Notes under the pieces: model-generated
What the model was told of the DNA's origin: nothing
Seen by the model: the letters and a program-made list of their open reading frames with translations, nothing else
Database searches by the model: none
Shown here: positions 51,880-63,434 of the stretch, piece after piece
Numbering within the stretch: position 1 is the stretch's first letter
Layout of the letters: each line of letters begins with the position of its first letter
Program-made: the position numbers and the translations under genes
Origin: a virus
DNA length: 64,000 nt
Reading direction: 5' to 3' (one strand)
IMG/VR virus record: IMGVR_UViG_3300037111_000040
Span: 32,001-96,000 of that record

Positions 51880-52059
51880 ATGAGACTAGGAACTGTTCTT
51901 CGCAAGTGGCGAGCGATGGAAGAGAAAAGTGTACGCGAGGTAGCCAAGGAAATCGGCACCTCCTCAGCCACTCTCAACCGCATCGAGCACGACAAACCGT
52001 GCGAGTCTGGCACGCTGGCGAAGGTACTTCTATGGCTGATAGGCAAAGAGAAAAAGTGA
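51880..52059 (+). CDS. XRE-family HTH protein
   Basis: 'LRKWR...SVREVAKEIGTSSATLNRIE'. Confidence 0.8.
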   Translation: MRLGTVLRKWRAMEEKSVREVAKEIGTSSATLNRIEHDKPCESGTLAKVLLWLIGKEKK

Positions 52060-52071
52060 CGGGAGGGACAA

Positions 52072-52419
52072 ATGGACTGGAAAGCGTGGGCAAAGAAGCA
52101 GGAAGAGGACGGAACGGCTGAGGTTCACACGCCGACAGAACTTCAGTTCGCCGAGACAGGCGATGGTCCTTGGGCGCTGTACATCTACGGGCGCGCCGGA
52201 TTCCATACCGGGAAAGTCTGGTTCCGCAAAGGACCAATGAAGTACCCTGACGAGGAAATCACCGCCACCGAAGCCAAGGAGCGCGTGGAGAAGGCCATTG
52301 GTGACGGGCGCGAAGTTCGCATCTGCAACGGCGGCGACATGCTCGTCTTCCACTCCGAGCGCGGTGTGGTGCTCTATCCAGACAGCGCCGAGGAGTTCTG
52401 GAAGGCGGTAGGCGTGTGA
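52072..52419 (+). CDS. Hypothetical protein
   Basis: GGAGG RBS; 115 aa. Confidence 0.65.
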   Translation: MDWKAWAKKQEEDGTAEVHTPTELQFAETGDGPWALYIYGRAGFHTGKVWFRKGPMKYPDEEITATEAKERVEKAIGDGREVRICNGGDMLVFHSERGVVLYPDSAEEFWKAVGV

Positions 52420-53189
52420 TGAGGCTGTTCGATCCGTTTCAGTACGTCCCTACTGACCGTCGAGGCACTCCTCCAGAGCAAGCCTTCGACAATATGGTCG
52501 AATCGTATGCGTACAGCGTGCAGGGAAAGAGGGGTGATGGGCGTCCTCCGCTCCGAATGGGGGTTTCGGCTATTCCAGTCGAAGACGCTAGGCGTCTGTT
52601 CGTCCATTACGTTTCGTACTGGGAGGGATTCTATCGCAACGTGAGCCAAGCTCTGAACGATCACATGTCGATCTGCACGAGCCCGCCTCCGATCTTCGCG
52701 GAAATGAGAAAGGGCGATATGCGTAGCCTGTTCTCTCAAGGATACGTGGTGAACGCGGATCGCCGGAGCGGGAAGACACAAGCACTCTTCGACGAGGCCG
52801 ACGAGGTTTCACGGGCAACATCCAGCAGGATTGCCATCGTAGCACCGCGCAAAGATTACATCATGGCCGAAGCAGTGAAGAGACGCTTGGAGCACGCGAC
52901 GCCGGGACAATTCAACAGGCTGGAGTTCATTGGTGAGGATGAACTACATAAGCTGGATGGGCTGAGTCGAGATGTGATGGTGGACGAATGGTGGCATCTT
53001 TCCGAACGGACGCGTGAAACACTCGCGGACAGATTCAACATCATGGCGGCGGTTGGGACATTGCCGCATGGCGCGCGGATACCAATCACATCTCGCGCAC
53101 TGCGGGACGAAGACGGCTACTACGGCAGGAAGCCGGACACCTACAACCCGTTAGCGATGGCACGGGTCGAAAGAGAGGATAGGTACTAA
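52416..53189 (+). CDS. Protein with short P-loop NTPase-like domain
   Basis: 'RRSGKT' Walker A-like, 'VMVDE' Walker B-like. Confidence 0.55.
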   Translation: MMRLFDPFQYVPTDRRGTPPEQAFDNMVESYAYSVQGKRGDGRPPLRMGVSAIPVEDARRLFVHYVSYWEGFYRNVSQALNDHMSICTSPPPIFAEMRKGDMRSLFSQGYVVNADRRSGKTQALFDEADEVSRATSSRIAIVAPRKDYIMAEAVKRRLEHATPGQFNRLEFIGEDELHKLDGLSRDVMVDEWWHLSERTRETLADRFNIMAAVGTLPHGARIPITSRALRDEDGYYGRKPDTYNPLAMARVEREDRY

Positions 53190-53338
53190 ATGACATGCAG
53201 CAAGTAGAGGATCAAGAGCAGGACCAAGATGGTGCCGATTCCAATGCCAGCGCCGCCGCCCGGACCCCACTGTGTATTACCCCAGTAGCCGCCGCCGAAA
53301 CCGAAAATCAACACCAACACGATAACGAGGATAAGCAT
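53186..53338 (-). CDS. Small membrane protein, DUF3309-like
   Basis: MLILVIVLVLIFGFGGGYWG...GIGTILVLLLILYLL; AGGAGG RBS; hand-translated. Confidence 0.7.
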   Translation of the reverse strand: MLILVIVLVLIFGFGGGYWGNTQWGPGGGAGIGIGTILVLLLILYLLHVI

Positions 53339-53348
53339 TTCGAACCTC

Positions 53349-53522
53349 CTAGCTGAAGTTTTCTTTTATCCACGCTGTGACGCGTTCGAGAATAGTCGGA
53401 TCGTGAACAATGACTTCGACGACCGGCGCGGGGTTTTGAACAATGATTTTTGTGACCGCTGTGTTTTTCTTTGTGGCTACAGGTTTCTTGACAACGATCT
53501 TGGGCTTCTTCGTCTTTGGCAC
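53349..53522 (-). CDS. Small hypothetical protein
   Basis: GGAGG RBS, GTG start, 57 aa; hand-translated. Confidence 0.55.
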   Translation of the reverse strand: MPKTKKPKIVVKKPVATKKNTAVTKIIVQNPAPVVEVIVHDPTILERVTAWIKENFS

Positions 53523-53539
53523 ATCATCCTCCTATGAGG

Positions 53540-53701
53540 TTAGTGACCGATGTGAAGCGGCAGGATTCCGTTGAACAGGATGGAGGCCACGAAGAACGCA
53601 AATGCAGCCCAACCGAGGCTCCAGCGCTGCGGAGGGTTCGGAACACCGAGCGCCGCAAGGATCGCTAAAACTAAAGCGAAAACGAGCAGGATCGTTGACA
53701 T
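53540..53701 (-). CDS. Small two-TM membrane protein
   Basis: GAGGTG RBS; MSTILLVFALVLAILAALG...LGWAAFAFFVASILF. Confidence 0.65.
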   Translation of the reverse strand: MSTILLVFALVLAILAALGVPNPPQRWSLGWAAFAFFVASILFNGILPLHIGH

Positions 53702-53926
53702 AGTTCACCTCAAGCCGATTATATGCTAAGATTGCGATGGATGGCTGTTCACTACTGAACATTTTGAGCACATGGCGGCGCAGTGTTTCCAGAAGCCCGA
53801 TTCGAATCCCCCCATCTGCGGGGTTCACAACGTTCGGCTTGTTCCAAGTGATGTGCCTTTCGATGGGAAGAAGATCGCCTGTCTGCGTTGTCCAGTGAGC
53901 CGATTCGTGGTGGACGAAGAAAAACG

Positions 53927-53955
53927 TTGACAACCCACCAATTCCATGGAATGAT
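53927..53955 (+). promoter_or_regulatory. Promoter of tRNA operon 1
   Basis: TTGACA-17-AATGAT with TG extension. Confidence 0.65.
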
Positions 53956-53964
53956 GGTTTCGCT

Positions 53965-54033
53965 ATGAAGACAGTGTGCCTCAGTTCGCTCTCCTCGTAT
54001 AGCTCATTACTGAGCGGTGGCGGGGGTTCGTGA
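53965..54033 (+). CDS. Leader peptide 1 MKTVCLSSLSSYSSLLSGGGGS (putative attenuator)
   Basis: Codons 5-17 are all Cys/Leu/Ser/Tyr, matching the downstream tRNAs. Confidence 0.8.
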   Translation: MKTVCLSSLSSYSSLLSGGGGS

Positions 54034-54062
54034 ACTGAGTCCAAAGTGGAATTCAGTCAGCG

Positions 54063-54087
54063 GCCTCCGAGAAATCGGGGGCTTTTT
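54063..54087 (+). terminator. Attenuator terminator before tRNA operon 1
   Basis: GCCTCCGA-GAAA-TCGGGGGC-TTTTT. Confidence 0.85.
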
Positions 54088-54094
54088 AGTTTGT

Positions 54095-54171
54095 GCCCGT
54101 GTACGCCAAATGGCAGAGCGCGACTTCTTAAAAAGGTCGGGATGGGGTTTCGAGTACCCCTGCGGGCACCA
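54095..54171 (+). tRNA. tRNA-Leu(TAA), short variable loop
   Basis: Cloverleaf, loop CTTAAAA, CCA end. Confidence 0.8.
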
Positions 54172-54172
54172 T

Positions 54173-54248
54173 GGATCGGTGGCGAAGTGTTAAACGCGGC
54201 AAGCTGCAACCTTGCTAATCGCTGGTTAAAATCCGGCCCGGTCCTCCA
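54173..54248 (+). tRNA. tRNA-Cys(GCA)
   Basis: Loop CTGCAAC, U73, CCA. Confidence 0.85.
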
Positions 54249-54256
54249 AGTTTCAC

Positions 54257-54333
54257 GCGCGAGTAGGCAAACAGGCAAAGCCGCCAGATCGAGGGTCTGG
54301 TGTTTGGGGATTCGATTTCCCCCTCGCGCACCA
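54257..54333 (+). tRNA. tRNA-Leu(GAG), short variable loop
   Basis: Loop TCGAGGG, A73, CCA. Confidence 0.8.
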
Positions 54334-54334
54334 C

Positions 54335-54414
54335 GGGCAGGTACGCAAATTTGGCAAAGCGGCAGTCTTCAGACGGCTGTGATTTTGTGGATTCGAATTC
54401 CACTCTGCCCACCA
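54335..54414 (+). tRNA. tRNA-Leu(CAG)
   Basis: Loop TTCAGAC, CCA. Confidence 0.8.
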
Positions 54415-54448
54415 AAGATTTGAACCATGATGGTATAATTGAACCATC

Positions 54449-55189
54449 ATGAAGTACACAAAGGAAATTCTCGAACAGGCCGTGAAAGAAAGTTTTTCAA
54501 TGGCAGACGTATTGAGAAAATGCGGAGCACCAAATCTGGCTGGTGGAACATCTCACCATGTTTCGAAGAGGATTAAGGAATATGGGATCAGCACAAGCCA
54601 CTTCATCGGAAAGCGTTGGCATTTAGGAAAGCCCAGTTTGAATCGAAGGGAAGCCGATTCATATTTGGTTTACCATGCAGACCTGAAAAGGCAGAGAGCA
54701 AAGGTGCTTGTGCGTTCGCTGCTCGACATTGGACGGCCATATAAGTGTTATGTTTGTGGGCTTCGCGAGTGGCGTGGAAAGAAACTGATTCTTGAGATAG
54801 AACACAAGGATGGAAACTTCCAAAACGATGTAGAGGAAAACCTAGAGTTTATTTGCCCCAATTGTCATTCCCAAACTCTTACATTTTCTCGCAGAAAGGA
54901 TTCGAAGCAATTCCTCCCACCTAAGCTCAGGCCAAAGAGGCAAGGGAGAGAGGTCAGGCACCCGTCTTCGGACGGTTACTGGAGAACAAGGGACAAGCCG
55001 CGTTTGAGAAAAGTGGACCGACCGAGCCCTGTAGAATTGCAATCCTTATTGCAAACGTTGCCGATGATAAAGATTGGTGAAAAATTCGGAGTCTCTGACA
55101 ACGCTGTTAGGAAGTGGATTCGGCGATATGGCATGGAGATGCCCAAGGTTTTCGGCAGGAGTCGTGGCAATAAGGATGTGCGCGTGTAG
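54449..55189 (+). CDS. HNH endonuclease with HTH modules
   Basis: 'CYVCG...LEIEHKDGN...NLEFICPNCHSQT'; C-terminal HTH 'IGEKFGVSDNAVRKW'. Confidence 0.88.
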   Translation: MKYTKEILEQAVKESFSMADVLRKCGAPNLAGGTSHHVSKRIKEYGISTSHFIGKRWHLGKPSLNRREADSYLVYHADLKRQRAKVLVRSLLDIGRPYKCYVCGLREWRGKKLILEIEHKDGNFQNDVEENLEFICPNCHSQTLTFSRRKDSKQFLPPKLRPKRQGREVRHPSSDGYWRTRDKPRLRKVDRPSPVELQSLLQTLPMIKIGEKFGVSDNAVRKWIRRYGMEMPKVFGRSRGNKDVRV

Positions 55190-55265
55190 CAAAACGGAAA
55201 AGCGCCGGTTTTAGGCACCGGAGGGGTAACACCCATTGCGAGTTCGAGTCTCGCCACGCGCACCA
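55180..55265 (+). tRNA. tRNA-Leu(TAG)
   Basis: Loop TTTAGGC, long variable arm, CCA. Confidence 0.85.
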
Positions 55266-55270
55266 AGTTT

Positions 55271-55348
55271 GCGGATGTGAAGGGAAACGGAATACCTCTG
55301 AAGCTCAAACCTTCAGGCTTATCGGTTCGAGGCCGATCATCCGCACCA
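55271..55348 (+). tRNA. tRNA-Leu(CAA), short variable loop
   Basis: Loop CTCAAAC, CCA. Confidence 0.8.
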
Positions 55349-55356
55349 AGTTTTAC

Positions 55357-55442
55357 GGAGCGCGGGCAGGATGGTAATGCAACGGCTTGCTAAGCCGCAC
55401 AACCGCGAGGTTGACAGTGTTCGATTCACTGGCGCTCCGCCA
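55357..55442 (+). tRNA. tRNA-Ser(GCT)
   Basis: Anticodon GCT, long variable arm, G73, CCA. Confidence 0.88.
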
Positions 55443-55451
55443 TATTTTTAC

Positions 55452-55538
55452 GGAAGGGTGAGCGGAACGGTATCGCCCCCGGCTGGAAACCGGGTCACGT
55501 GAAAGCGTGTGCAGGTTCGACTCCTGTCCCTTCCGCCA
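55452..55538 (+). tRNA. tRNA-Ser(GGA)
   Basis: Loop CTGGAAA, long arm, CCA. Confidence 0.88.
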
Positions 55539-55543
55539 GTTTT

Positions 55544-55631
55544 GGAAGCGTTGGGCATTTGGCAGGCCCACCCCGTTCGAAGCGGGACACACCTTCGGGT
55601 GTTGAGCGTTCGACTCGCTCCGCTTCCGCCA
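55544..55631 (+). tRNA. tRNA-Ser(CGA)
   Basis: Anticodon CGA, long arm, CCA. Confidence 0.85.
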
Positions 55632-55637
55632 AGTTTT

Positions 55638-55727
55638 GGATGGTTGGCAGAGTCTGGTTGATCGCGCTGGCCTTGAGTACCAGTAGACCGAAGGGTCTCG
55701 GGGGTTCGAATCCCTCACCATCCGCCA
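55638..55727 (+). tRNA. tRNA-Ser(TGA)
   Basis: Loop CTTGAGT, long arm, CCA. Confidence 0.85.
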
Positions 55728-55831
55728 GTTTGTAAGGGGGAGATTGACAGGTCGTGCAACAACGGTGAAGCAGTACCAGACTCCCCCTTTGGCGGCATCA
55801 TGAGGCCGTCCTGAACGGAAGTTTACCACGT

Positions 55832-55922
55832 GCGTTGGCTGGAGAGACGGTGGACTCTACCAGACTGTAAATCTGGATCATCTTCGATGACGCTGCAGGT
55901 TCAAATCCTGCCCAACGCACCA
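55832..55922 (+). tRNA. tRNA-Tyr(GTA)
   Basis: Loop CTGTAAA, long arm, CCA. Confidence 0.88.
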
Positions 55923-55947
55923 GAATTTCTGCGCTATACTCTGGCAC

Positions 55948-56331
55948 ATGCGAACGTATCGGTTTCAGACGACGTGGTCCCCGATGGACGATGACGATCT
56001 CCAGAATAACTTCGTGAGAATGAGGAAGAAATACTGGATAAAGCGTGGCCTTTGGATTCCAGAGAACGTGAAAACAGTTTTCCGGCACATACGTGACACA
56101 ACTGTGTGGCAGAACCATCCGTGTGGCCAACTTGATACTCTTCGAAGAGGCTACAAGATAGTTGTCTCTCCACCATTGGCGTTCATCTACTGTGTTGCGC
56201 ATATTACCCTCCTGCATGAAATGGCGCACCTTTATCGAATTGCGAACTTCAACGATCACAGTCACGGAGATGGGTTCAAGAAGGAGATCGACCGCCTCTA
56301 TGCCGCAGATGCATTTAGAAAGCTAATTTGA
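55948..56331 (+). CDS. SprT-like zinc metallopeptidase
   Basis: 'TLLHEMAH...HG..FKKE..RL'. Confidence 0.7.
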   Translation: MRTYRFQTTWSPMDDDDLQNNFVRMRKKYWIKRGLWIPENVKTVFRHIRDTTVWQNHPCGQLDTLRRGYKIVVSPPLAFIYCVAHITLLHEMAHLYRIANFNDHSHGDGFKKEIDRLYAADAFRKLI

Positions 56332-56334
56332 TTT

Positions 56335-56877
56335 ATGCTACACTCCTGTCATTCCGTGGCAACACGGAAATACTTACGCAGGAGAAAATCAATGAACCCC
56401 ATCAGCTTCCGTAACTCGAAGATCGTTTACTATGGCCCCCACACATGCGAAAATTGCGGCGTTTTCATCGTCAAGATGGGAACAGAGTGGGGCGGAAACG
56501 CGTTCACCAACCCAGAAGGTCCGATCTACCCAAACACAGAGTGGTTCCCACACGTTTGCGATCAGCAGTTAGTTCGCCAGCGCAAGGGCATGTCTGCGGC
56601 CAGCCGGGTCAGAGATGATTTCCCACTTGCACATGCGATCATGCTCAACAACGTCGGTCATGTGATTCTCGGGGAACCATGCAACCCACAACATAAGCAC
56701 GCCCTTGTTGTGAGTGAAAATAAGCACTACTATGACACGGAAGATGCGGCATGGGTTGGTGCTTTGAATCGGATTCTCAATGACTGGCCGACGTCGCACA
56801 TCGATCTGAGTATGTACGGGGTCCACACTCGATTGACAGATGATCTGGCTACCCTGCCACAGTGCCCGTCAGAGTAA
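56335..56877 (+). CDS. Hypothetical protein (probable start 56392)
   Basis: AGGAG RBS before 'MNPISF'; CxxC motif. Confidence 0.55.
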   Translation: MLHSCHSVATRKYLRRRKSMNPISFRNSKIVYYGPHTCENCGVFIVKMGTEWGGNAFTNPEGPIYPNTEWFPHVCDQQLVRQRKGMSAASRVRDDFPLAHAIMLNNVGHVILGEPCNPQHKHALVVSENKHYYDTEDAAWVGALNRILNDWPTSHIDLSMYGVHTRLTDDLATLPQCPSE

Positions 56878-56915
56878 TTCTTGCACGCGCGCAGGTTCCG
56901 TGGTACTGTAAATAG

Positions 56916-56992
56916 CGCGTGGTGGAGAAGCGGTCTATCTCGCCAGCCTCATAAGCTGGAGATCGAGGGTTCGAATCCCTCCCTCGCAACCA
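56916..56992 (+). tRNA. tRNA-Met(CAT), initiator-like
   Basis: C1:A72 mismatch, loop CTCATAA, CCA. Confidence 0.8.
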
Positions 56993-56998
56993 TTTTTT

Positions 56999-57073
56999 GC
57001 GGGCGTATCCTAACGGTCAGGTACTGCACTGTCTATGCAGTTCAAGCGGGTTCAACTCCCGTCGCTCGCGCCA
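56999..57073 (+). tRNA. tRNA-Asp(GTC)
   Basis: Loop CTGTCTA, G73, CCA. Confidence 0.82.
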
Positions 57074-57077
57074 TCTT

Positions 57078-57155
57078 GTCCTGTTCGTCTAGTCTGGCCA
57101 AGGACGTGACCCTCTCAAGGTCAAAACGGCGGTTCAAATCCGCTACGGGACGCCA
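57078..57155 (+). tRNA. tRNA-Glu(CTC)
   Basis: Loop CTCTCAA, CCA. Confidence 0.88.
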
Positions 57156-57161
57156 AGCTGT

Positions 57162-57241
57162 GGGGTAGTAGAAGGTGTCTGGAATCTTTCACCTGACTTT
57201 CACTCAGGAGTTCGCGGGTTCGAATCCCGTCTGCCCCACCA
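57162..57241 (+). tRNA. tRNA-Glu(TTC)
   Basis: Loop CTTTCAC, enlarged D loop, CCA. Confidence 0.8.
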
Positions 57242-57244
57242 TAT

Positions 57245-57802
57245 ATGAACGGTGACTCCTCAATTTGCAACAAATGTGGTAAGTCTGAGCCAGAGGTCAC
57301 ATTTGCGCTGCGCCTCGTAGGCGGGAGACAGTATCCGAAATATATTTGTCGAAGCTGTGATACTAAACGTAAACAAATTTGGCGGCGGTCGCGTGGAAGA
57401 ACAGAAACGATAAGGTTGTCAGCGATGATTCGCCAAAGGCGCGAAAGAACAGATCGAGAGCAGATACCGCGTGTGATAGTCGTTGACTGTCGGCGATCAG
57501 ATAAGAAAAAAGGATTTGTTTGTGACCTCACGATTGAGTTCGTGAAAGAATCCATAAAAGATGGTTGCTCTTATTGTGGGGAGATAAGAATACGCGTCGG
57601 CTTAGATCGCATCGACAATGCGTTGGGCCACTCTCAGAATAACGTCGTAGCGTGCTGTGGGCGCTGTAATTATCTCCGGAGAGATATGCCCTATGCGGCA
57701 TGGATGATGCTGGTTCCACAGGTGAGAAAAATCCGAGAATCTGGGGCTTTTGGAGACTGGGATGGGTTCGGCAGATATCGAAAGGGAAAAAATAATCTGT
57801 AA
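57245..57802 (+). CDS. HNH-type endonuclease
   Basis: 'CSYCG...GLDRIDN..GH...NVVACCGRCN'. Confidence 0.85.
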   Translation: MNGDSSICNKCGKSEPEVTFALRLVGGRQYPKYICRSCDTKRKQIWRRSRGRTETIRLSAMIRQRRERTDREQIPRVIVVDCRRSDKKKGFVCDLTIEFVKESIKDGCSYCGEIRIRVGLDRIDNALGHSQNNVVACCGRCNYLRRDMPYAAWMMLVPQVRKIRESGAFGDWDGFGRYRKGKNNL

Positions 57803-57844
57803 AACCTCTTGACAAATTCTGCGCTTTCCTTCACTATGCTGAAT

Positions 57845-58297
57845 ATGACGTAGATCGATTCCAAGACGTACTTTTACCTCTTCGTTCGGCAAGACCTCCC
57901 CATCGCTGCACAGATCGTGCAGACGAACCACGCGACATTTGATATGGCTTACACGCTCACCCAGAGCGCCGATCCTTCTACGCCTTCCATCGTGCTCATA
58001 GGCGTTCCCGACAAAAAAGCGCTTCACAAGGTAATCCAGAAGCTCAAGCTGAATCGCATCGAGTTCTCGGAGTTCCACGAGAGCGATGACGATCTGGGAC
58101 TCACTGCGGTCGCGACGATTCCTCTCGACGAGGATCAGCGCGCGGTGCTCCAGAACTACAAGCTTTGGAACGAAAACAATTTGACATACGCGCCTAGCTC
58201 AGTGGTCAGAGCGCCGTTGCAGTCTGACGGAGGTCCGAGGTTCGAATCCTTGGGCGCGTACCAACGGGCGGATAGCTCGACTATGCAGGAGGTGTGA
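57845..58297 (+). CDS. Peptidyl-tRNA hydrolase Pth2-like, interrupted by in-frame TAG at codon 3
   Basis: ATG ACG TAG ATC GAT... in frame with 'YLFVRQDL..AAQIVQTNHA...IVLIGV...E.D..LTAVAT.P...YKLW'. Confidence 0.75.
58188..58263 (+). tRNA. tRNA-like element with aberrant anticodon loop (GCAGTCT; nominal AGT)
   Basis: Perfect acceptor, D (TAGCTCAGTGG..AGAGC) and T (GGTTCGAATCC) arms and CCA; no U33 or purine 37. Confidence 0.7.
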
Positions 58298-58592
58298 ATC
58301 CTCCGCCGCCCGGAACGTAGTTCTTTGTGTTGAGGTCGGGAACGTCTTTAAGGTCAACCGAGACGAACCGTTCTTCGAACCGCGTGTCGAACAACGTCAG
58401 GCTGAACTTGTAGGTGGACTTTTTGTCTTCCCGGAGCTTCTTGATGTAGGTGTTGAAGCCGCCGATGGTGTCGTCGACACAACTTCCCATTGAGCCAGAT
58501 TTGTCGAGAACAAAGTTAATCAGAACGCTTCCGCGATTTTCTTTGCCCTTTGGCTTTGATTCTTTTTTGGTTTTCTTTGTGGACTTGGCCAT
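58281..58592 (-). pseudogene. N-terminal fragment of a vWA-domain protein
   Basis: MIDAS 'FVLDKSGSM', 'TIGGFN'; ends at 'YVPGGG' where 'T.L.DA' would follow. Confidence 0.65.
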
Positions 58593-58836
58593 GGATTTCT
58601 CCTCGCGAGATCGTCGCGGCTGTGGTTGAAATGTTTTCTGGGACCGTGTACGTCATAGTCGCGCTGACCCCGAGAGATTCAGTGATACTCCTGCCCGGTT
58701 CACGGCGGCGATTGTAAACGTCATTGAGGTAGGACGGCGACACGCCCAATGTCTGGGCAAAGTCCTTCTGGCTTTTCTCGCCCTGAAGCGTCTTCATGAT
58801 TTCGAGGAGGCCATCGATGTTCGTCACCGTGTGCAT
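58516..58836 (-). CDS. XRE-family HTH protein
   Basis: 'SQKDFAQTLGVSPSYLNDVYNRRREPG'. Confidence 0.75.
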   Translation of the reverse strand: MHTVTNIDGLLEIMKTLQGEKSQKDFAQTLGVSPSYLNDVYNRRREPGRSITESLGVSATMTYTVPENISTTAATISRGEIHGQVHKENQKRIKAKGQRKSRKRSD

Positions 58837-58932
58837 AAATTCGAGAATACGCGGATTTGCGTATTTGTCAAGAAGGACACCGCAGATGAAGAATTTATTG
58901 ACTACCGGCCCGCGAGGCGCTACCGTTCTGGT

Positions 58933-59166
58933 ATGGCAAGTACCGCCTTTCAGCCGATCATCGACCTTGTCAAGGGCTGGTCTGACAAGTTGCAGGGCGC
59001 TGAGGATTTCATCAATAAGCTTCCGGTTCCCGGAAAATCCTCCACCATGAAAACCAGCAGGGGCAAGCCCCCCCTCGCGACCTCGTGGTACTACTACGGC
59101 AAGCAACAGCCGCCGCGCCCCGGCGAGCAGAAGGCCGTGGCCCGCAAGCGCATCCCAAAAAAGTGA
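58933..59166 (+). CDS. Small basic protein ending ARKRIPKK
   Basis: Leaderless ATG downstream of a TTGACT promoter-like site. Confidence 0.55.
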   Translation: MASTAFQPIIDLVKGWSDKLQGAEDFINKLPVPGKSSTMKTSRGKPPLATSWYYYGKQQPPRPGEQKAVARKRIPKK

Positions 59167-59182
59167 TAAACCGATGAAGTGA

Positions 59183-59887
59183 TTAAAGGTACTTTAGATT
59201 ACATTCATCGCAATGCCATGTGGTTGATGGGCTTTTGCAGGCGACACACAGCCCTTTCATCCGAATGGCGCGAGTTCGCTCGCTTGTTCGTTTGGCGTTA
59301 GCTTCGCGACAGAGATCGCATCTACATCTGTGATAGGTATAGGTCGTGGTGACACCATGTATTGGCTTTGGTTTTACTCGTGGAGGCAAGGATGCCCGCG
59401 AGAGAGCATCACAAGAGAAGCCAAGCAATCCGGCTATTTGCCTCACCGTTTTCCCGTCATTTCGCAGCGATTCTATTTCAAGGATGTTGGCTCGAATCTT
59501 CTCTGAATTAGATTGACGAGCGGAAGATGAACCGACAATCTGGCGCACATATTCTCTTGTAAAACCGTATTTATTCCCAATTTTTTGCAGTGTCCAACCA
59601 TCCCTACGGAGGACTTTCATTTCCTCTCTGCGCGGATCGGCAGGTTTGGGTGGTATGGAGGCCCCAAGATCGTAGAATCCTGCCAACTCTCTGTTTAATC
59701 CCGGCCCATTATCAACGTGCCACTTGCTGTGACAAAATAAGCAAAGCCAACGCACATCTAGTGGTCTTGCATAATCGTCGTGGTGGGCGACAAGCCGTCG
59801 CTGTGCCCCACATTCTTCGCATAAGAGCGCGATTGTAATGCTTCCACGCTCAACCGCTGCTTTGACGAGTAGGTGAACGCGGGCCAT
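59183..59887 (-). CDS. HNH-like endonuclease with HTH and Zn-finger modules
   Basis: 'CEECG...AHHDDY..PLDVRWLC..CH..WH'; 'TLQKIGNKYGFTREYVRQI'; 'CRCDLC'. Confidence 0.8.
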   Translation of the reverse strand: MARVHLLVKAAVERGSITIALLCEECGAQRRLVAHHDDYARPLDVRWLCLFCHSKWHVDNGPGLNRELAGFYDLGASIPPKPADPRREEMKVLRRDGWTLQKIGNKYGFTREYVRQIVGSSSARQSNSEKIRANILEIESLRNDGKTVRQIAGLLGFSCDALSRASLPPRVKPKPIHGVTTTYTYHRCRCDLCREANAKRTSERTRAIRMKGLCVACKSPSTTWHCDECNLKYL

Positions 59888-59903
59888 TTTTTTCAAAAAC
59901 CTC

Positions 59904-59932
59904 TTGACAGTTTTCCTGATTGATTATATCGT
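59904..59932 (+). promoter_or_regulatory. Promoter of tRNA operon 3
   Basis: TTGACA-17-TATCGT, 7 nt before the GTG of the leader. Confidence 0.75.
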
Positions 59933-59939
59933 GGAAAAC

Positions 59940-60011
59940 GTGAGAACCCGATTCCATAACGCAGCGACACAGCCGACGCAACCAGCCGGTAATAGCGGCG
60001 GTGCGGACTAG
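59940..60011 (+). CDS. Leader peptide 2 MRTRFHNAATQPTQPAGNSGGAD (putative attenuator)
   Basis: Codons 2-18 are all R/T/F/H/N/A/Q/P/G, matching the downstream tRNAs. Confidence 0.8.
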   Translation: MRTRFHNAATQPTQPAGNSGGAD

Positions 60012-60053
60012 GGGTCTCAGACAGATTTTTTCCTAACACAGATGGAAAAACTT

Positions 60054-60093
60054 GAGACCCCCAGAACCGAAAGGAACTGGGGGTTCTCGTTTG
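60054..60093 (+). terminator. Attenuator terminator before tRNA operon 3
   Basis: ACCCCCAG..CC-GAAA-GG..CTGGGGGT-TCTCGTTT; left arm can alternatively pair with TAGGGGTCTCAG. Confidence 0.7.
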
Positions 60094-60102
60094 TGGGGAT
60101 GT

Positions 60103-60177
60103 TCAAGGGTAGCTCAATGGTAGAGCCCACGGCTGTTAACCGTGTCGTTGTGGGTCCGACTCCCACCCCTTGAGCCA
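60103..60177 (+). tRNA. tRNA-Asn(GTT)
   Basis: Loop CTGTTAA, G73, CCA. Confidence 0.88.
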
Positions 60178-60187
60178 GTTTAGAAGT

Positions 60188-60263
60188 TGGCTCTTCGTTC
60201 AATGGTTGAGGACCTTCGCCTCTGGAGCGAATGATCTGGGTTCGAGTCCCGGAGAGCCAGCCA
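60188..60263 (+). tRNA. tRNA-Gln(CTG)
   Basis: Loop CTCTGGA, U1-A72, CCA. Confidence 0.88.
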
Positions 60264-60275
60264 AGTTTGAGTTGT

Positions 60276-60349
60276 TCCCGGTTCGTTCAGTGGCAGGACG
60301 TGGGCCTTTGGAACCCAACACGGGAGTTCGATTCTCCCACCGGGTGCCA
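60276..60349 (+). tRNA. tRNA-Gln(TTG)
   Basis: Loop CTTTGGA, CCA. Confidence 0.85.
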
Positions 60350-60350
60350 C

Positions 60351-60424
60351 GCGGGGTTGATGTAGCGGTAGCATCGAAGTGTGCCACACTTTGCGCATCG
60401 GTTCGAACCCGATACCCCGCTCCA
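60351..60424 (+). tRNA. tRNA-Gly(GCC)
   Basis: Loop GTGCCAC, U73, CCA. Confidence 0.85.
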
Positions 60425-60503
60425 CTTTGGAGGAAGAAGAATGAAGATCGATTTGAACGCCGACATGCAGCATGTTTTCGCACGGTTGGCGAAAGGATTT
60501 CGA

Positions 60504-60578
60504 GCACCGTTAGTTGAGTCGGCACAACACGACCCTCGTAACGTCGAAGCCCCGGTTCGATTCCGGGACGGTGCTCCA
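60504..60578 (+). tRNA. tRNA-Thr(CGT)
   Basis: Loop CTCGTAA, CCA. Confidence 0.82.
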
Positions 60579-60611
60579 CAGATTGACGAGAGGTAGAAGA
60601 AAGGGGATTCC

Positions 60612-61157
60612 ATGGCACTCATACGGAGAGCGGTACTACAACTTAACGCGTCGTATGAGCCGCTGAGAATCGTCAGCGCGCGAAAGGCGCTCACGCTCAT
60701 AACCAAGGGCGTTGCCGTGGTGGAGGTGCCAACCAGCATCCAAGTCCACAAGGGAATCTACCTTCCTTCCGTCATCCGTTTGCGGCACTACAGGAACGTC
60801 CCGCACCGGATGCAGCAGGTTTCGAGGAAGAACATTTTCATTCGCGACGGTTTCAGGTGCATGTACTGCGGCGCGAAGAAGAACAACGGGGCAGAGCTTG
60901 AACTGGAGCACGTGATCCCGAGAAGCAGAGGTGGTAAGCAGTCATGGGACAACCTTGTTGCTGCCTGTTCCCCGTGCAATAGACGTAAGAACAACCGGAC
61001 GCCGGAAGAGGCTGGAATGAAGTTGATCCATAGGCCGCTGCCCGCGAATATCTTTACAAGCCGCTTCATTTTGAAACAGCTTGGCAGAGAAGTTGAGGAA
61101 TGGGGAAAGTTCCTTTTTTCTGATTCCGAAGGCGAAACGAGGTTACAATTTAGGTAA
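60612..61157 (+). CDS. HNH endonuclease (McrA-like)
   Basis: 'LNASYEPL','PSVIRL','RD.F.C.YCG','EHVIPRSRGG..SWDNLVAAC..CN.RK'. Confidence 0.9.
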   Translation: MALIRRAVLQLNASYEPLRIVSARKALTLITKGVAVVEVPTSIQVHKGIYLPSVIRLRHYRNVPHRMQQVSRKNIFIRDGFRCMYCGAKKNNGAELELEHVIPRSRGGKQSWDNLVAACSPCNRRKNNRTPEEAGMKLIHRPLPANIFTSRFILKQLGREVEEWGKFLFSDSEGETRLQFR

Positions 61158-61160
61158 AAG

Positions 61161-61883
61161 ATGCGCAAACTCGTCGGCAAAATTTACTTAATTCGTAATC
61201 TCGCGAACGGCAAGGGGTACGTCGGCCAGACCACGAAACAAACTGTGTGGATAAGGTTCAACCAGCACAAATACGAGGTCAAGCGCGGAAGCAATCTGCC
61301 CATACATAGGGCGATGAGAAAGTGGGGAGTTGAAAACTTCACAGTTATCGAAGTCGCCTCGTGTGATCCACTTTTGCTCGACGATCTCGAAAAGCACTTC
61401 ATCAAATTCTACAAAACCTACATCACAAGCGGTCGCGGCTATAACAGGACGGCAGGAGGGTACAGCGGATTCAACAGAGACGGAATCAGGATTCTTACAG
61501 AAAAGGGAAGCTCGACACTTTCAGATGTCCATAAGGGAAACTCTTATGCCAAGGGGCACAAAGTATCGGAAGAAGGAAGAGCGAGAATGGCCGAGGCTGC
61601 TAGAAATAGAGGACCGGTAACGCGCTCGCCAGAGTTGAGGGCCAGAATCTCGGCCACCTTGAAAGGACACCCTGTTGCAGAGGAATCGAGAGCGAAGATG
61701 TCAGCGTCGCACAAGGGGGTAAAAGTCGGCTACCGGAAACGCAGGCCGATGTCGGATGAGCACAAGGCGAAGATTTCCGCGAGTATGCGTGGAAAGAGGA
61801 AAACTCCGGAGTCCATAGCCAAGAGACTTGCGACTTGTGCTTTGCTTAACACGGGTGACACAAGATACCAGTTTGTTAACTAA
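61161..61883 (+). CDS. GIY-YIG homing endonuclease with NUMOD3 repeats
   Basis: 'KIYLIRNLANGKGYVGQT','GYN.T.GG', repeated 'SEE.RAKMS.S.KG'. Confidence 0.9.
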   Translation: MRKLVGKIYLIRNLANGKGYVGQTTKQTVWIRFNQHKYEVKRGSNLPIHRAMRKWGVENFTVIEVASCDPLLLDDLEKHFIKFYKTYITSGRGYNRTAGGYSGFNRDGIRILTEKGSSTLSDVHKGNSYAKGHKVSEEGRARMAEAARNRGPVTRSPELRARISATLKGHPVAEESRAKMSASHKGVKVGYRKRRPMSDEHKAKISASMRGKRKTPESIAKRLATCALLNTGDTRYQFVN

Positions 61884-61927
61884 CATAAATGTTCGTTATC
61901 GTCTCCAAATTTTGCTATACTCGGGAG

Positions 61928-62653
61928 ATGAAAAACGAAGAAAGGCGAAAAGCTGCTCGGAGGCGGTGGTACTACAGGAACAGGAAATCCAAGAAGGTGT
62001 TGAAGTCGCGAATTCCTGACGTACCGCTGCTTTCTGTTGAGGAACGTAAGACTATTAGCAGGGCGAATGCTGTGGTTGCGCTGGCGAAAGCTCATGCTAA
62101 AGCAAAAATCAAATCGGATCAGATACAACGTAAGAGAGAAGAGCGTCGATGCGTAATTTGCGGCGGTCCTGTTCTCGTTAAGAATCTGAAAGCAAAATCG
62201 TGCTCGGTGAGATGCGCGAAGATCGCCAGACGAAAAAGAAGAGAGAATTGGGAAAAGGCTTGCGCGTACTGCGGTTCCACATGTTCTGGTCAGAACAAGT
62301 ATTGCGACGACTGCAACAAAAGCCAAATCTACAAGATGGCTCAGTCTACTGAAGATGTAAGCGATTCAAAGGCTGTCAAGCGTCTGGTGCTTCGGAGAAG
62401 AGGACACAGATGCGAAGGATGCGGTTTAGATCAGTGGATGGGAAAAGCCATCCCGCTTGAACTTCACCATGTGGACGGGGATTCAGAGAATAACAAAGAT
62501 GAGAACCTGCAACTTCTCTGTCCTAATTGCCACGCTTTGACTCCAACGTTTCGTAATCGAAACAAAAGGAAGGCGAGCGAAAGAAGAAGAAAGATAAGAA
62601 AGACGAGAGAGTTTGCCGAAGTAGCTCAAGAGGAAGTAGCGGCGGTTTTGTGA
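61928..62653 (+). CDS. HNH endonuclease
   Basis: 'CEGCG...LELHHVDGD..NN..ENLQLLCPNCH..T'. Confidence 0.88.
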   Translation: MKNEERRKAARRRWYYRNRKSKKVLKSRIPDVPLLSVEERKTISRANAVVALAKAHAKAKIKSDQIQRKREERRCVICGGPVLVKNLKAKSCSVRCAKIARRKRRENWEKACAYCGSTCSGQNKYCDDCNKSQIYKMAQSTEDVSDSKAVKRLVLRRRGHRCEGCGLDQWMGKAIPLELHHVDGDSENNKDENLQLLCPNCHALTPTFRNRNKRKASERRRKIRKTREFAEVAQEEVAAVL

Positions 62654-62690
62654 ACCGCTGATGGGATTTCGAGTATCCCCTTCGGCCCCA
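62615..62690 (+). tRNA. tRNA-His(GTG) copy 1 (no encoded G-1)
   Basis: Loop TTGTGAA, C73, CCA. Confidence 0.75.
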
Positions 62691-62773
62691 AGCTCACTGG
62701 GACACGCGGAATCTCCCGCTTACGGGCGGGAGGGTGCTACCAAGCTATAACGTGTCCCGGTAGCGCGATTCAT

Positions 62774-62852
62774 GGCGGTGTTGGCAGAGCGGTCTATTGC
62801 GCGTGTCTGTGGCACACGTATTACATCGGTTCGAATCCGATACGCCGCCCCA
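62774..62852 (+). tRNA. tRNA-His(GTG) copy 2 (G-1:C73)
   Basis: Loop CTGTGGC, CCA. Confidence 0.85.
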
Positions 62853-62861
62853 AAGTTTTAC

Positions 62862-62937
62862 GGGCCTATAGCTCATTTAGGAGAGCGCCGCACTTGCAAT
62901 GCGGAGGCGGTCGGGGCGGAGCCGACTAGGTCCACCA
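62862..62937 (+). tRNA. tRNA-Ala(TGC)
   Basis: G3:U70, loop CTTGCAA, atypical T loop. Confidence 0.85.
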
Positions 62938-63032
62938 AGTTTGACTGGTGCCTCACCTGTAACGACGTAAGGGTGAAGGCGTCACGGGTCGCACGTCGCA
63001 AGGTAGAGGCCCGCTAAGTTTTTAGGAGAAAT

Positions 63033-63281
63033 ATGCGTCAATTCATAAAGCGATCCGAGCGCGGTTTTTCTCAGCGAAGACATGAGGGAGATTTGCGTAG
63101 GAGAAAGCAGTTCGCAAGCAAGATCGCGGATTGTTTCTTTGCTGAGAGTCCTTTCCAGCGGATGCTCATGAGGTGTGGACGCGCTCGGAAGCTGATGCAG
63201 GCATATCGCGCGAAGAAGATGATTCGCAGGCCGAGCAACTTTCGGCAGGATGTTTGGCAAGAGTTTTGTCGATTGAGCTAG
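63033..63281 (+). CDS. Arg-rich hypothetical protein
   Basis: AGGAG RBS; stop lies inside tRNA-Phe. Confidence 0.45.
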   Translation: MRQFIKRSERGFSQRRHEGDLRRRKQFASKIADCFFAESPFQRMLMRCGRARKLMQAYRAKKMIRRPSNFRQDVWQEFCRLS

Positions 63282-63343
63282 TGCAGTCATAGCGTCCGCC
63301 TGAAGAGCGGAAGAACTCGGGGCAGCACCGGGAGTCGACACCA
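63268..63343 (+). tRNA. tRNA-Phe(GAA)
   Basis: Loop CTGAAGA, atypical T loop, CCA. Confidence 0.78.
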
Positions 63344-63344
63344 T

Positions 63345-63421: not shown

Positions 63422-63434
63422 TTTTGGAAGTCAC

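What the first reader, a model, noticed from the sequence alone, without database searches (positions are those of the whole stretch)
53965..54087. Attenuator 1: Cys/Leu/Ser/Tyr sensor ahead of 11 Leu/Cys/Ser/Tyr tRNAs
Codons: ATG AAG ACA GTG TGC CTC AGT TCG CTC TCC TCG TAT AGC TCA TTA CTG AGC GGT GGC GGG GGT TCG TGA. The 13-codon run samples different isoacceptors: TGC (GCA), CTC (GAG), TTA (TAA), CTG (CAG), AGT/AGC (GCT), TCC (GGA), TCG (CGA), TCA (TGA), TAT (GTA). All of these anticodons are encoded downstream. The GGGGG in the terminal Gly codons can pair with CCTCC in the terminator left arm, closing a TGAACTGA/TCAGTCA helix. A ribosome at the stop codon would mask it (termination); one stalled upstream would leave it free (antitermination).
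Basis: partly seen in the sequence, partly recalled or inferred. Interest (0 to 1): 0.92.

Follow-up and report, generated by a model that had tools for sequence, protein, structure and literature searches.

The report
Codon-matched attenuator gating phage tRNAs
A large uncultured phage puts a tiny test gene, spelled in the codons of the Leu, Cys, Ser and Tyr tRNAs that follow it, in front of a switchable transcription stop, so it probably makes those tRNAs only when ribosomes read those codons slowly.

Summary
Window 53927-54094 holds a sigma-70-like promoter, a 22-codon ORF (53965-54033), alternative hairpins and an intrinsic terminator. Eleven Leu/Cys/Ser/Tyr tRNA genes follow.

- **Codon run:** the 13-codon Cys/Leu/Ser/Tyr run is the longest such run in all six frames of the 121.7-kb phage contig. 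About 0.001 runs this long are expected by chance.
- **Same layout elsewhere in the contig:** two further tRNA operons have it, each leader matching its own tRNAs.
- **Relatives:** I found 34 such leaders in 12 related phage records. In 32 of 34, codons read by the leader's own operon outnumber those of the other operons. Pooled, that is 461 of 790 codons against 221 of 1497.
- **Folding:** a ribosome stalled in mid-ORF frees an antiterminator. A ribosome at the stop codon, or none, leaves the terminator favoured. Only 9 of 850 shuffles did as well.

The best reading is a trp-type leader-peptide attenuator that reports tRNA supply and feeds back on phage tRNA synthesis.

Nothing here is experimental. 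Covariation support for the antiterminator is weak, and leader codons do not track tRNA gain and loss.

Six literature searches found no published account. The scan had already noted the same kind of element in other phage genomes.

The parts
53927..53955 (+). Sigma-70-like promoter: TTGACA, 17-nt spacer, AATGAT, with TG before the second hexamer. The -10 hexamer ends 9 nt before the ATG, so the leader mRNA would be leaderless or nearly so.
   Evidence: The same arrangement (-10 ending 6-10 nt before the start codon, at least 8 of 12 consensus matches) occurs in 21 of 34 leaders, and in 19 of the 22 op1/op2 leaders.
53965..54033 (+). Leader ORF of 22 codons plus TGA: MKTVCLSSLSSYSSLLSGGGGS.
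   Evidence: ORFs of like composition stand at the same place in 11 relatives.
53977..54015 (+). Sensing run of 13 codons, all Cys, Leu, Ser or Tyr: TGC CTC AGT TCG CTC TCC TCG TAT AGC TCA TTA CTG AGC.
   Evidence: Longest such run in the genome, 0.001 expected. The best 16-codon window has 13 codons cognate to the first 11 tRNAs; 8 of 157,692 stop-free windows genome-wide do as well.
53980..53998 (+). Region 1, inside the sensing run. 53980-53989 and 53992-53998 pair with region 2 when no ribosome is present.
   Evidence: Minimum-energy fold of 53960-54094: -57 kcal/mol, z = -4.88, 0 of 200 shuffles as stable.
54020..54043 (+). Region 2, covering the Gly codons, the stop codon and the bases after it. 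It pairs either with region 1 (54020-54026, 54030-54039) or, as the antiterminator 5' strand, with region 3 (54021-54027, 54029-54031, 54034-54043).
54047..54069 (+). Region 3, the antiterminator 3' strand. 54063-54069 is also 7 of the 9 bases of the terminator's 5' arm.
   Evidence: Fold of 54015-54094: -31.3 kcal/mol with the terminator disrupted. Fold of 54015-54072: -26.9 kcal/mol, z = -3.49.
54062..54093 (+). Intrinsic terminator: GGCCUCCGA GAAA UCGGGGGCU, then UUUUUAGUUUG. It ends 1 nt before tRNA-Leu(taa).
   Evidence: 9 pairs, 6 G-C, loop of 4. Hairpin energy -15.6 to -16.5 kcal/mol.
54095..54414 (+). First tRNA block: Leu-taa, Cys-gca, Leu-gag, Leu-cag.
55180..55922 (+). Second tRNA block: Leu-tag, Leu-caa, Ser-gct, Ser-gga, Ser-cga, Ser-tga, Tyr-gta. 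It lies after the HNH-like ORF at 54449-55189.
59904..60093 (+). Sister element (attenuator 2). Promoter 59904-59932; GTG ORF 59940-60011 (VRTRFHNAATQPTQPAGNSGGAD); a GGGGUCUCA/UGAGACCCC antiterminator at the stop codon; terminator 60057-60084. It stands ahead of Asn, Gln, Gln, Gly, Thr, Thr, His, Ala, Pro, Pro and Arg tRNAs.
   Evidence: A third element lies outside the window at contig positions 102906-102995, ahead of Trp, Met, Ile, Lys, Arg, Val, Thr and Gly tRNAs.

Best explanation
This is a ribosome-mediated (trp-type) transcription attenuator whose regulated products are tRNAs.

Transcription starts at or just before the ATG at 53965, so a ribosome loads on a leaderless message. Its speed over 13 Cys/Leu/Ser/Tyr codons depends on the supply of the aminoacyl-tRNAs that the operon itself encodes.

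- **Fast decoding:** the ribosome reaches the stop codon and covers region 2. The terminator at 54062-54083 forms and RNA polymerase stops 1 nt short of the first tRNA gene.
- **Slow decoding of any of these codons:** the ribosome sits on region 1, and region 2 pairs with the terminator's 5' arm. Polymerase then reads into the 11 tRNA genes.
- **No translation:** regions 1 and 2 pair, and the terminator forms.

The result would be negative feedback that holds the pool of each tRNA set at a level sufficient for translation. The contig carries three such circuits, one for each tRNA operon.

Shown: the sequence features, their statistics, their conservation and the predicted alternative folds. 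Inferred: translation of the ORF, the transcription start, stalling, and regulated termination.
For: 1. **Anatomy.** Promoter, ORF, terminator and first tRNA lie in the order and spacing of a classical attenuator.

2. **Codon match in this contig.** In leader 1, 14 of 21 residues belong to its own amino-acid set; leaders 2 and 3 have 1 of 22 and 3 of 28 residues from that set. Leaders 2 and 3 have 19 of 22 and 18 of 28 in their own sets. At codon level, 15 of 21, 16 of 22 and 17 of 28 codons are cognate to the leader's own operon, against 2-10 for the other operons. Simulated p values are 0.0015, 0.00005 and 0.0001. Each leader's best 16-codon window ranks among 3-4 places genome-wide out of 157,692 windows.

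3. **Conservation.** All 11 relatives examined have the same three-operon order of tRNAs or part of it. There are 34 leaders in 12 records. In 32 of 34, own-operon codons exceed those of every other operon. Pooled, this is 461 of 790 (58%) against 221 of 1497 (15%). Of 388 tRNAs, 350 have at least one cognate codon in their own leader. The op1 peptides keep Leu/Ser/Cys/Tyr but in a different order, for example VKTLSLSSCLYLSSSEGWVD and MNNLCSLSLSSYSLSLSAREAMG.

4. **Switch.** In all 34 leaders a modelled ribosome footprint in mid-ORF lowers the terminator's advantage by 5.0-15.7 kcal/mol relative to a ribosome at the stop codon. Shuffled upstream sequence gives a mean relief of 1.5-4.1, and 9 of 850 shuffles reach the real values. 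The distance from stop codon to terminator is 26-32 nt in all 12 op1 leaders.

5. **Start signals.** A promoter whose -10 ends 6-10 nt before the start codon occurs in 21 of 34 leaders. Eight of the other 13 have a Shine-Dalgarno-like motif.

6. **Synonymous codon choice.** Over all 34 leaders, codon choice covers more isoacceptors than the peptides require: 350 observed against 304.8 +/- 6.4, with 0 of 2000 simulations as high.
Against: - **No experimental evidence:** nothing shows a transcription start, translation, stalling or termination.
- **Weak covariation for the antiterminator.** Each leader's stop-proximal window pairs with its own terminator arm at a mean of -15.0 (op1), -15.4 (op2) and -15.1 (op3) kcal/mol. 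Windows from other genomes give -12.4, -13.1 and -14.2. In 31 of 124, 23 of 84 and 42 of 130 cross pairs the foreign window does as well. The support is therefore general G-rich/C-rich complementarity.
- **Leader codons do not track tRNA gain and loss.** The cognate codon is in the leader in 195 of 224 cases where the tRNA is present, but still in 131 of 235 where it was not detected. Leader 2 keeps a Phe codon although no tRNA-Phe was found in this contig. Leader 1 has no TTG or CTA.
- **Distal tRNAs are poorly represented.** The Met, Asp, Glu, Glu and Thr tRNAs further down the first operon have few cognate codons in leader 1.
- **Isoacceptor spread is not significant for leader 1 alone** (p = 0.31).
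- **Op2 terminators stay favoured.** They keep a 2.6-15.2 kcal/mol advantage even in the best stall state. Three relatives (G001, G002, G005) lack a good U tract after the op2 hairpin.
- **Start codons.** Some leaders start with GTG on an apparently leaderless message.
- **Low sensitivity.** One codon per isoacceptor should be less sensitive than the tandem codons of trpL or hisL.
- **Non-independence.** The relatives are kin, so pooled counts are not independent events. One leader (G003 op1) shows no match (7 codons each for all three operons).
Confidence: 0.75

Rival explanations
1. It is an attenuator that reports general translation capacity or amino-acid starvation, not the supply of these particular tRNAs. 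Any slowing of ribosomes opens all three operons alike, and the codon match is a by-product of shared ancestry or composition.
For: The same architecture fits. Leader codons persist where the tRNA is not found (131 of 235 cases). Single codons per isoacceptor should give weak specificity. The isoacceptor spread of leader 1 alone is not significant.
Against: Three leaders in one genome carry three almost non-overlapping codon sets, each matching its own operon. This holds in 32 of 34 leaders across 12 records. A general gauge would not need that partition.
Confidence: 0.12
2. The hairpins are a constitutive partial terminator or a processing and stability element at the 5' end of the tRNA precursor. 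The short ORF is not translated.
For: Terminator-like and promoter-like matches are common in this region. No Shine-Dalgarno motif precedes the ATG at 53965. No RNA or ribosome data exist for the leader.
Against: An untranslated element would not keep an open frame of 17-31 codons with a start codon at a fixed distance from the promoter and a stop 26-32 nt before the terminator in 12 of 12 op1 leaders. Nor would it keep an amino-acid composition matched to the tRNAs while the order changes. The chance expectation for the run is 0.001.
Confidence: 0.06
3. The leaders encode small peptides that act as proteins. The conserved KRVIWG core of the third leader would be an example. Their place ahead of the tRNAs would be incidental.
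For: The op3 leaders share a conserved peptide and DNA core, AAGCGGGTNATNTGGGG. Eleven of 33 database matches to it lie in a leader-like ORF, and ten of these have the expected tRNAs downstream.
Against: The op1 leaders, including the one in question, keep composition but not sequence order. The conserved op3 core is also part of a predicted hairpin. A peptide function does not explain the terminator switch.
Confidence: 0.04

Closest known systems
Leader-peptide transcription attenuators of enterobacterial amino-acid operons (trpL, hisL, leuL, pheL; the multivalent thrL and ilvL)
   Same: A promoter-proximal short ORF is rich in regulatory codons. Hairpins 1:2, 2:3 and 3:4 are mutually exclusive, and an intrinsic terminator precedes the regulated genes. 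Stalling gives read-through. The multivalent leaders sense several amino acids at once. Basis: established knowledge; passages of PMC2836559 read; abstract of PMC1183508 seen in the listing.
   Different: The regulated genes are tRNAs, not biosynthetic enzymes. The codons form a panel of many different codons, roughly one or two per isoacceptor of the operon, not a tandem run for one amino acid. The message looks leaderless. The element is phage-borne and present in three copies with complementary codon sets. No Rfam leader family matches at E up to 1.
pheST (phenylalanyl-tRNA synthetase) operon attenuator of E. coli (recalled, not checked in a paper here)
   Same: A component of the translation apparatus is controlled by a leader peptide that reports the supply of the matching aminoacyl-tRNA.
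   Different: It has one amino acid, a protein product and a cellular gene. Here the product is the sensed tRNA itself, which closes a direct feedback loop.
T-box riboswitches
   Same: They couple tRNA status to an antiterminator/terminator choice ahead of translation-related genes (passage of PMC2836559).
   Different: A T-box binds uncharged tRNA directly and needs no ORF. No T-box or other Rfam match lies on the leader. Here the ribosome is the sensor.
Long tRNA array (trn operon) of Anabaena sp. PCC 7120, induced under translational stress
   Same: An accessory tRNA array is kept low and raised when translation is impaired (PMC8421152 passages; PMC10272220 abstract).
   Different: Control there works through direct repeats over the promoter and the repressor TrcR. 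The words 'leader peptide', 'attenuat' and 'terminator' do not occur in PMC8421152. It is a cellular megaplasmid operon, not a phage one.
Leaderless Cys-rich upstream ORFs of mycobacteria
   Same: These are small ORFs on leaderless transcripts, proposed as attenuating peptides ahead of cysA2 (PMC4633059 passages).
   Different: They are proposed for cysteine metabolism genes, carry a single amino-acid cluster, and their mechanism was left open in that paper.

Membership tests
Ribosome-mediated (leader-peptide) transcription attenuator | A short ORF with a usable start stands at the 5' end of the transcript, upstream of the regulated genes. | tested here: met
   ATG at 53965 lies 9 nt after a -10 hexamer. 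The same spacing occurs in 21 of 34 leaders. Whether it is translated was not testable.
Ribosome-mediated (leader-peptide) transcription attenuator | The leader is enriched in codons whose decoding depends on the product of the regulated genes. | tested here: met
   A 13-codon Cys/Leu/Ser/Tyr run, 0.001 expected. Fifteen of 21 codons are cognate to its own operon, p = 0.0015. Thirty-two of 34 leaders match their own operon best.
Ribosome-mediated (leader-peptide) transcription attenuator | An intrinsic terminator lies between the leader ORF and the first regulated gene. | tested here: met
   54062-54083 plus a U tract. A hairpin of -12.5 kcal/mol or stronger was found or set by hand after all 34 leaders, 3 of them without a good U tract.
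Ribosome-mediated (leader-peptide) transcription attenuator | An antiterminator excludes the terminator, and its 5' strand lies at the stop codon so that a terminating ribosome masks it. | tested here: met
   54021-54027 pairs with 54063-54069. The stall-against-stop difference is 13.4 kcal/mol here and 5.0-15.7 in all 34 leaders; 9 of 850 shuffles reach this. Cross-genome covariation is weak.
Ribosome-mediated (leader-peptide) transcription attenuator | Pairing of regions 1 and 2 gives termination when the leader is not translated. | tested here: met
   The minimum-energy fold of 53960-54094 has the 53980-53998 / 54020-54039 helix together with the terminator.
Ribosome-mediated (leader-peptide) transcription attenuator | Read-through rises when the cognate aminoacyl-tRNA is limiting. 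| not testable with these tools
   This needs transcription-translation assays or reporters. The metatranscriptome data held are contigs only.
Rfam leader families (Leu, His, Thr, Trp and Phe leaders) and T-box | A match to the family covariance model. | tested here: not met
   No match on 53927-54094 or 59904-60100 at E up to 1.

The most novel reading that the evidence does not exclude
The three codon-matched leaders form a phage-borne surveillance system for the tRNA pool. Each reports, isoacceptor by isoacceptor, whether host tRNAs are still there. They could be lost to host anticodon nucleases, to phage-induced decay, or to a mismatch with phage codon use. The operon that replaces the missing species is switched on, and it shuts off again once supply is restored. 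This would be a self-contained feedback organ for translation capacity in viruses. It appears widespread in large phages, since the scan has noted the same design in unrelated phage genomes.
Probability: 0.3. Interest if true: 0.95.

Novelty: new variant of a known kind. Interest (0 to 1): 0.85.

Why it matters
Phage tRNA genes are usually treated as passively expressed cargo that offsets codon-usage differences or host tRNA loss. A leader-peptide gate would mean that the phage measures decoding speed for each tRNA set and makes tRNAs on demand.

That extends a textbook mechanism, attenuation of amino-acid operons, to the tRNAs themselves. It would be a direct feedback loop in which the product is also the sensed molecule.

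It also gives a simple, portable sensor of the supply of a defined tRNA set, testable with short constructs. And it offers a way to predict, from sequence alone, which tRNAs a phage expects to run short of in its unknown host.

Tried and rejected
- **Close relatives among deposited phages:** none. A distant blastn of 53700-56000 hit only single tRNA-Ser genes, each covering 4% of the query.
- **Neighbour protein as anchor:** the 257-aa protein at 52416-53189 found no relatives in the viral collection and has no Pfam or PHROG family.
- **DNA search of five relatives with the leader plus first tRNAs:** two short tRNA matches in 1 of 5 records. I switched to the tRNA family model.
- **Merged-leader idea:** I thought the mixed op1 leader of record G003 might be a merged op1+op2 leader. 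I rejected this because G003 has its own op2 leader. That op1 leader remains the one clear exception.
- **Fine-scale co-evolution of leader codons with tRNA gain and loss:** not supported. One anecdote exists: record G009 has Glu tRNAs in operon 3 and GAG and GAA in its leader 3.
- **Covariation of antiterminator and terminator arms by cross-genome duplexes:** weak. The MAFFT alignment of the 12 op1 leaders was too gapped for pair counting, so I built no covariance model.
- **RNA evidence:** four peat metatranscriptome runs, held as contigs, were laid on 52000-64000. No contig covers 53604-54004, so they say nothing about leader 1, its start or its termination. Contigs cannot show ends or levels, and DNA may be present in such libraries.
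- **Peptidyl-tRNA hydrolase idea:** my impression from memory that the ORF at 57944-58297 resembles a peptidyl-tRNA hydrolase was not borne out. It has no Pfam hit and only a PHROG of unknown function.
- **Antisense frame:** the 170-aa open frame at 53532-54044 was considered as a real gene and rejected. It has no Pfam or PHROG match and is open at comparable length only in G000 and G006, 2 of the 12 records.
- **Low-threshold ARAGORN calls (85-88%):** these add many likely false tRNAs, 25 extra in this contig. I used only those on the + strand inside the arrays, and a few spurious ones probably remain in the operon sets.
- **Supplementary files of papers:** not consulted.
Full report
**What is there**

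The window is part of a single 121,714-bp virus record (window = contig positions 32001-96000). The record carries 36 tRNA genes by ARAGORN. It also holds a portal-like gene and homing-endonuclease genes among the tRNAs.

At 53927-53955 the consensus scan finds TTGACA-17-AATGAT with TG before the second hexamer. Nine bases later an ATG opens a 22-codon ORF, 53965-54033, MKTVCLSSLSSYSSLLSGGGGS.

A 9-pair G+C-rich hairpin at 54062-54083 with a T tract follows. tRNA-Leu(taa) starts at 54095.

The next ten tRNA genes are Cys-gca, Leu-gag, Leu-cag, Leu-tag, Leu-caa, Ser-gct, Ser-gga, Ser-cga, Ser-tga and Tyr-gta. An HNH-like ORF at 54449-55189 interrupts them.

**Is it more than chance?**

Promoter-like and terminator-like matches alone are not rare here: 12 found against 8.7 expected, and 21 against 15.5. 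The codon content is a different matter.

- The 13-codon run of Cys, Leu, Ser and Tyr (53977-54015) is the longest such run in six frames of the whole contig. The next longest is 10, and 0.001 runs of this length are expected.
- Counting codons that the first 11 tRNAs can read (Watson-Crick plus standard wobble), the best 16-codon window of the leader has 13. Eight of 157,692 stop-free windows in the genome, in about three places, do as well.
- By the same rules 10 of the first 11 tRNAs have a codon in the leader. Leu-caa has none, and Leu-tag is reached only through CTG (my reading; one search gives 11 of 16 for the whole operon).

**The same design twice more in this contig**

I found two further elements while listing short ORFs upstream of each tRNA block.

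*Leader 2.*
- A promoter at 59904-59932 is followed after 7 nt by a GTG ORF, 59940-60011, VRTRFHNAATQPTQPAGNSGGAD. Then come a hairpin and a terminator, and the Asn, Gln, Gln, Gly, Thr, Thr, His, Ala, Pro, Pro and Arg tRNAs.
- By my reading of the codons against the anticodons, all 11 of these tRNAs have a cognate codon in the leader. One search gives 12 of 13 when two low-threshold extras are included.

*Leader 3.*
- It lies at contig positions 102906-102995, outside the window: VQIRSKSVRTSMTGTKRVIWGVVREGWDD.
- It precedes Trp, Met, Ile-tat, Lys-ctt, Lys-ttt, Arg-tct, Arg-cct, Arg-ccg, Val-tac, Thr-ggt, Ile-gat and Gly-tcc. Three of these are called only at a lowered ARAGORN threshold and fill gaps of 82-104 nt.
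- All 12 have a codon in the leader.

The residue match is strongly diagonal. Own sets score 14 of 21, 19 of 22 and 18 of 28. Against the three core amino-acid sets the off-diagonal counts run from 1 of 22 to 11 of 28. At codon level, own operons score 15 of 21, 16 of 22 and 17 of 28, against 2-10 for the others. Simulated p values are 0.0015, 0.00005 and 0.0001.

The first-stage notes on this genome describe the same three elements. I had seen them independently.

**Relatives**

The portal protein finds 180 relatives in the viral collection, of which 80 were kept. I examined 11 records.

- Five are the portal hits on contigs of 82 kb or more (G001-G005).
- One came from the 180-aa protein inside the array (L086, called R86 here).
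- Five more (G006-G010) came from a pattern search with the conserved core of leader 3. In that search 11 of 33 matches lay in a leader-like ORF, ten of them with the expected tRNAs downstream. Three of the 11 lie in records already in hand. The other 22 looked like chance matches.

All 11 records have tRNA arrays in the same order. All have leaders in the same places, 34 in total.

The op1 leaders keep the composition but not the order. Examples:
- VKTLSLSSCLYLSSSEGWVD
- MRFLLSSSRYCLSSLLRAGSPYLDKGI
- MNNLCSLSLSSYSLSLSAREAMG
- MKQVLSSSSLSLCSLLYSYGGRV
- MKNLSLSSYLSSCGDGCA

In 32 of 34 leaders, codons cognate to the leader's own operon outnumber those of every other operon of the same record. 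The exceptions are G003 op1, and R86 op3 whose array is cut by the locus end. Pooled, 461 of 790 codons (58%) match the own operon against 221 of 1497 (15%) for others. Of 388 tRNAs, 350 have a cognate codon in their own leader.

Given the peptides, random synonymous codons would cover 304.8 +/- 6.4 tRNAs, and 0 of 2000 simulations reach 350. For single leaders this is not significant: leader 1 gives p = 0.31. The records are also kin.

**The switch**

*Without a ribosome.* The minimum-energy fold of 53960-54094 pairs 53980-53998 (inside the sensing run) with 54020-54039 (the Gly codons and the stop codon). The terminator is left intact. The energy is -57 kcal/mol, z = -4.88, and 0 of 200 shuffles are as stable.

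*With the first part removed.* The fold of 54015-54094 pairs 54021-54027 with 54063-54069, which is 7 of the 9 bases of the terminator's 5' arm. This pairing sits around a central hairpin, at -31.3 kcal/mol. A start ten bases further upstream gives the terminator form at -32.3, so the two forms are near-isoenergetic.

*Ribosome footprint model.* I masked 28 nt around each A-site codon. I then compared the best fold with the terminator forced against the best fold before the terminator's 3' arm exists.

| State | Terminator advantage (kcal/mol) |
|---|---|
| Footprint on codons 7-15 | -1.2 to -6.2 |
| Ribosome at the stop codon | -14.6 |
| No ribosome | -11.9 |

The same holds in all 34 leaders. 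Relief is 5.0-15.7 kcal/mol, against means of 1.5-4.1 when the sequence upstream of the terminator is shuffled with dinucleotides preserved. Nine of 850 shuffles reach both the real best value and the real relief.

From the first base of the stop codon to the first base of the terminator is 26-32 nt in all 12 op1 leaders. In leaders 2 and 3 the stop codon lies directly beside the antiterminator strand (UAG followed by GGGUCU...). This is the geometry in which a terminating ribosome blocks the antiterminator.

**Start of translation**

In 21 of 34 leaders a promoter with at least 8 of 12 consensus matches has its -10 hexamer ending 6-10 nt before the start codon. By operon this is 10 of 12 op1, 9 of 10 op2 and 2 of 12 op3. 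Eight of the other 13 have a Shine-Dalgarno-like motif. The leaders therefore look like leaderless messages. That has a precedent in the small leaderless ORFs proposed as attenuating peptides in mycobacteria (PMC4633059, passages read).

**Weak points**

- **Antiterminator covariation.** The antiterminator strands are G-rich and the terminator arms C-rich in all records, so foreign windows pair almost as well as a leader's own. Means are -15.0 against -12.4 kcal/mol in op1, and 31 of 124 cross pairs do as well. I therefore cannot claim compensatory covariation.
- **tRNA gain and loss.** Leader codons stay in place where the tRNA was not detected, in 131 of 235 cases. Leader 2 keeps TTC although neither ARAGORN nor the Rfam tRNA model finds a tRNA-Phe here, while 9 of 10 records with an op2 leader have one in operon 2.
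- **Distal tRNAs.** The Met, Asp, Glu, Glu and Thr tRNAs of the first transcription unit are poorly represented in leader 1. They may have their own promoters.
- **Op2 terminators.** They remain favoured by 2.6-15.2 kcal/mol in the best stall state. Three relatives lack a good U tract after the op2 hairpin.
- **RNA evidence.** Metatranscriptome contigs of peat libraries hold near-identical sequence. One 244-nt contig without differences spans 59982-60210, across the terminator of leader 2 into the tRNAs. This is a weak hint of read-through at most, since contigs show no ends and DNA may be present.

**Comparison with what is known**

The element works like the leader-peptide attenuators of amino-acid operons, above all the multivalent thr and ilv leaders. 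Every sequence-testable defining feature is met.

It matches no Rfam leader family or T-box.

It differs in four ways:
- its output is tRNA genes;
- its codons form a panel of many different codons spread over the isoacceptors of the operon;
- its message looks leaderless;
- it is a three-part set in a phage.

The nearest functional analogue I could read about is the accessory tRNA array of Anabaena. That array is induced under translational stress but is controlled by promoter repeats and the repressor TrcR.

Six full-text searches found no account of leader-peptide attenuation of tRNA genes. The library lacks most subscription journals, and I could not see supplements.

Within this scan the same kind of element has been reported by other agents in several other phage genomes. 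I did not check those.

**Verdict**

The element is best filed as a new variant of a known kind of control. It is of high interest because it turns phage tRNA genes from cargo into a regulated, self-sensing supply system, and because it can be tested with short constructs.

Noticed in passing
window 55728-55831: A 104-nt gap between tRNA-Ser(tga) and tRNA-Tyr holds a TTGACA and a G/C-rich inverted repeat (AAGGGGGAG ... CTCCCCCTT). No tRNA is called there, and the only Rfam hit is weak and below threshold (sX4, E = 0.06). It could be an internal promoter or a small RNA.
   Followed up: no
window 54449-55189, 60612-61157, 61161-61883, 61889-62653: Homing-endonuclease genes sit between the tRNA blocks. 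The ORF at 60612-61157 is a clear HNH. The ORF at 61161-61883 has GIY-YIG plus NUMOD3. The ORFs at 61889-62653 and 54449-55189 have weak HNH matches. Relatives have such genes at other positions, in places between a leader and its first tRNA.
   Followed up: partly
window 59940-60011 and 62938-63344: Leader 2 has a Phe codon (TTC), but no tRNA-Phe is found in this contig. Nine of 10 records with an op2 leader have tRNA-Phe(gaa) in operon 2. Where relatives have it, this contig has an 82-aa ORF (63033-63281).
   Followed up: partly
contig positions 103226-103319, 103404-103478, 103796-103870 (outside the window): ARAGORN at its default threshold misses three tRNAs that fill the 82-104-nt gaps of operon 3: Ile-tat, Lys-ttt and Thr-ggt. 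They appear at an 85% threshold and are present in relatives.
   Followed up: partly
window 63904-63985: There is a weak match to the YrlA (Y RNA-like) model, 27.9 bits against a gathering score of 69, E = 0.0049. First-stage notes describe a Y-RNA-like array here.
   Followed up: no
L090 (12950), L089 (8580), L090 (7909, 11433), L086 (11361-11773): Relatives carry tRNA-like genes with anticodons tta, tca and cta, which could read stop codons. One carries a tmRNA-like gene inside the array.
   Followed up: no
window 57944-58297: This ORF matches a PHROG of unknown function (phrog_34073, E = 2.3e-11) and runs over tRNA-Thr(agt) at 58188-58263. It has no Pfam match.
   Followed up: no
window 53532-54044, minus strand: A 170-aa open frame lies antisense to leader 1. 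It has no Pfam or PHROG match and is open at comparable length only in G000 and G006, 2 of the 12 records. It is probably not a gene.
   Followed up: yes
window 31485-33311: A 608-aa protein has radical SAM and SPASM domains in the phage's structural-gene region.
   Followed up: no
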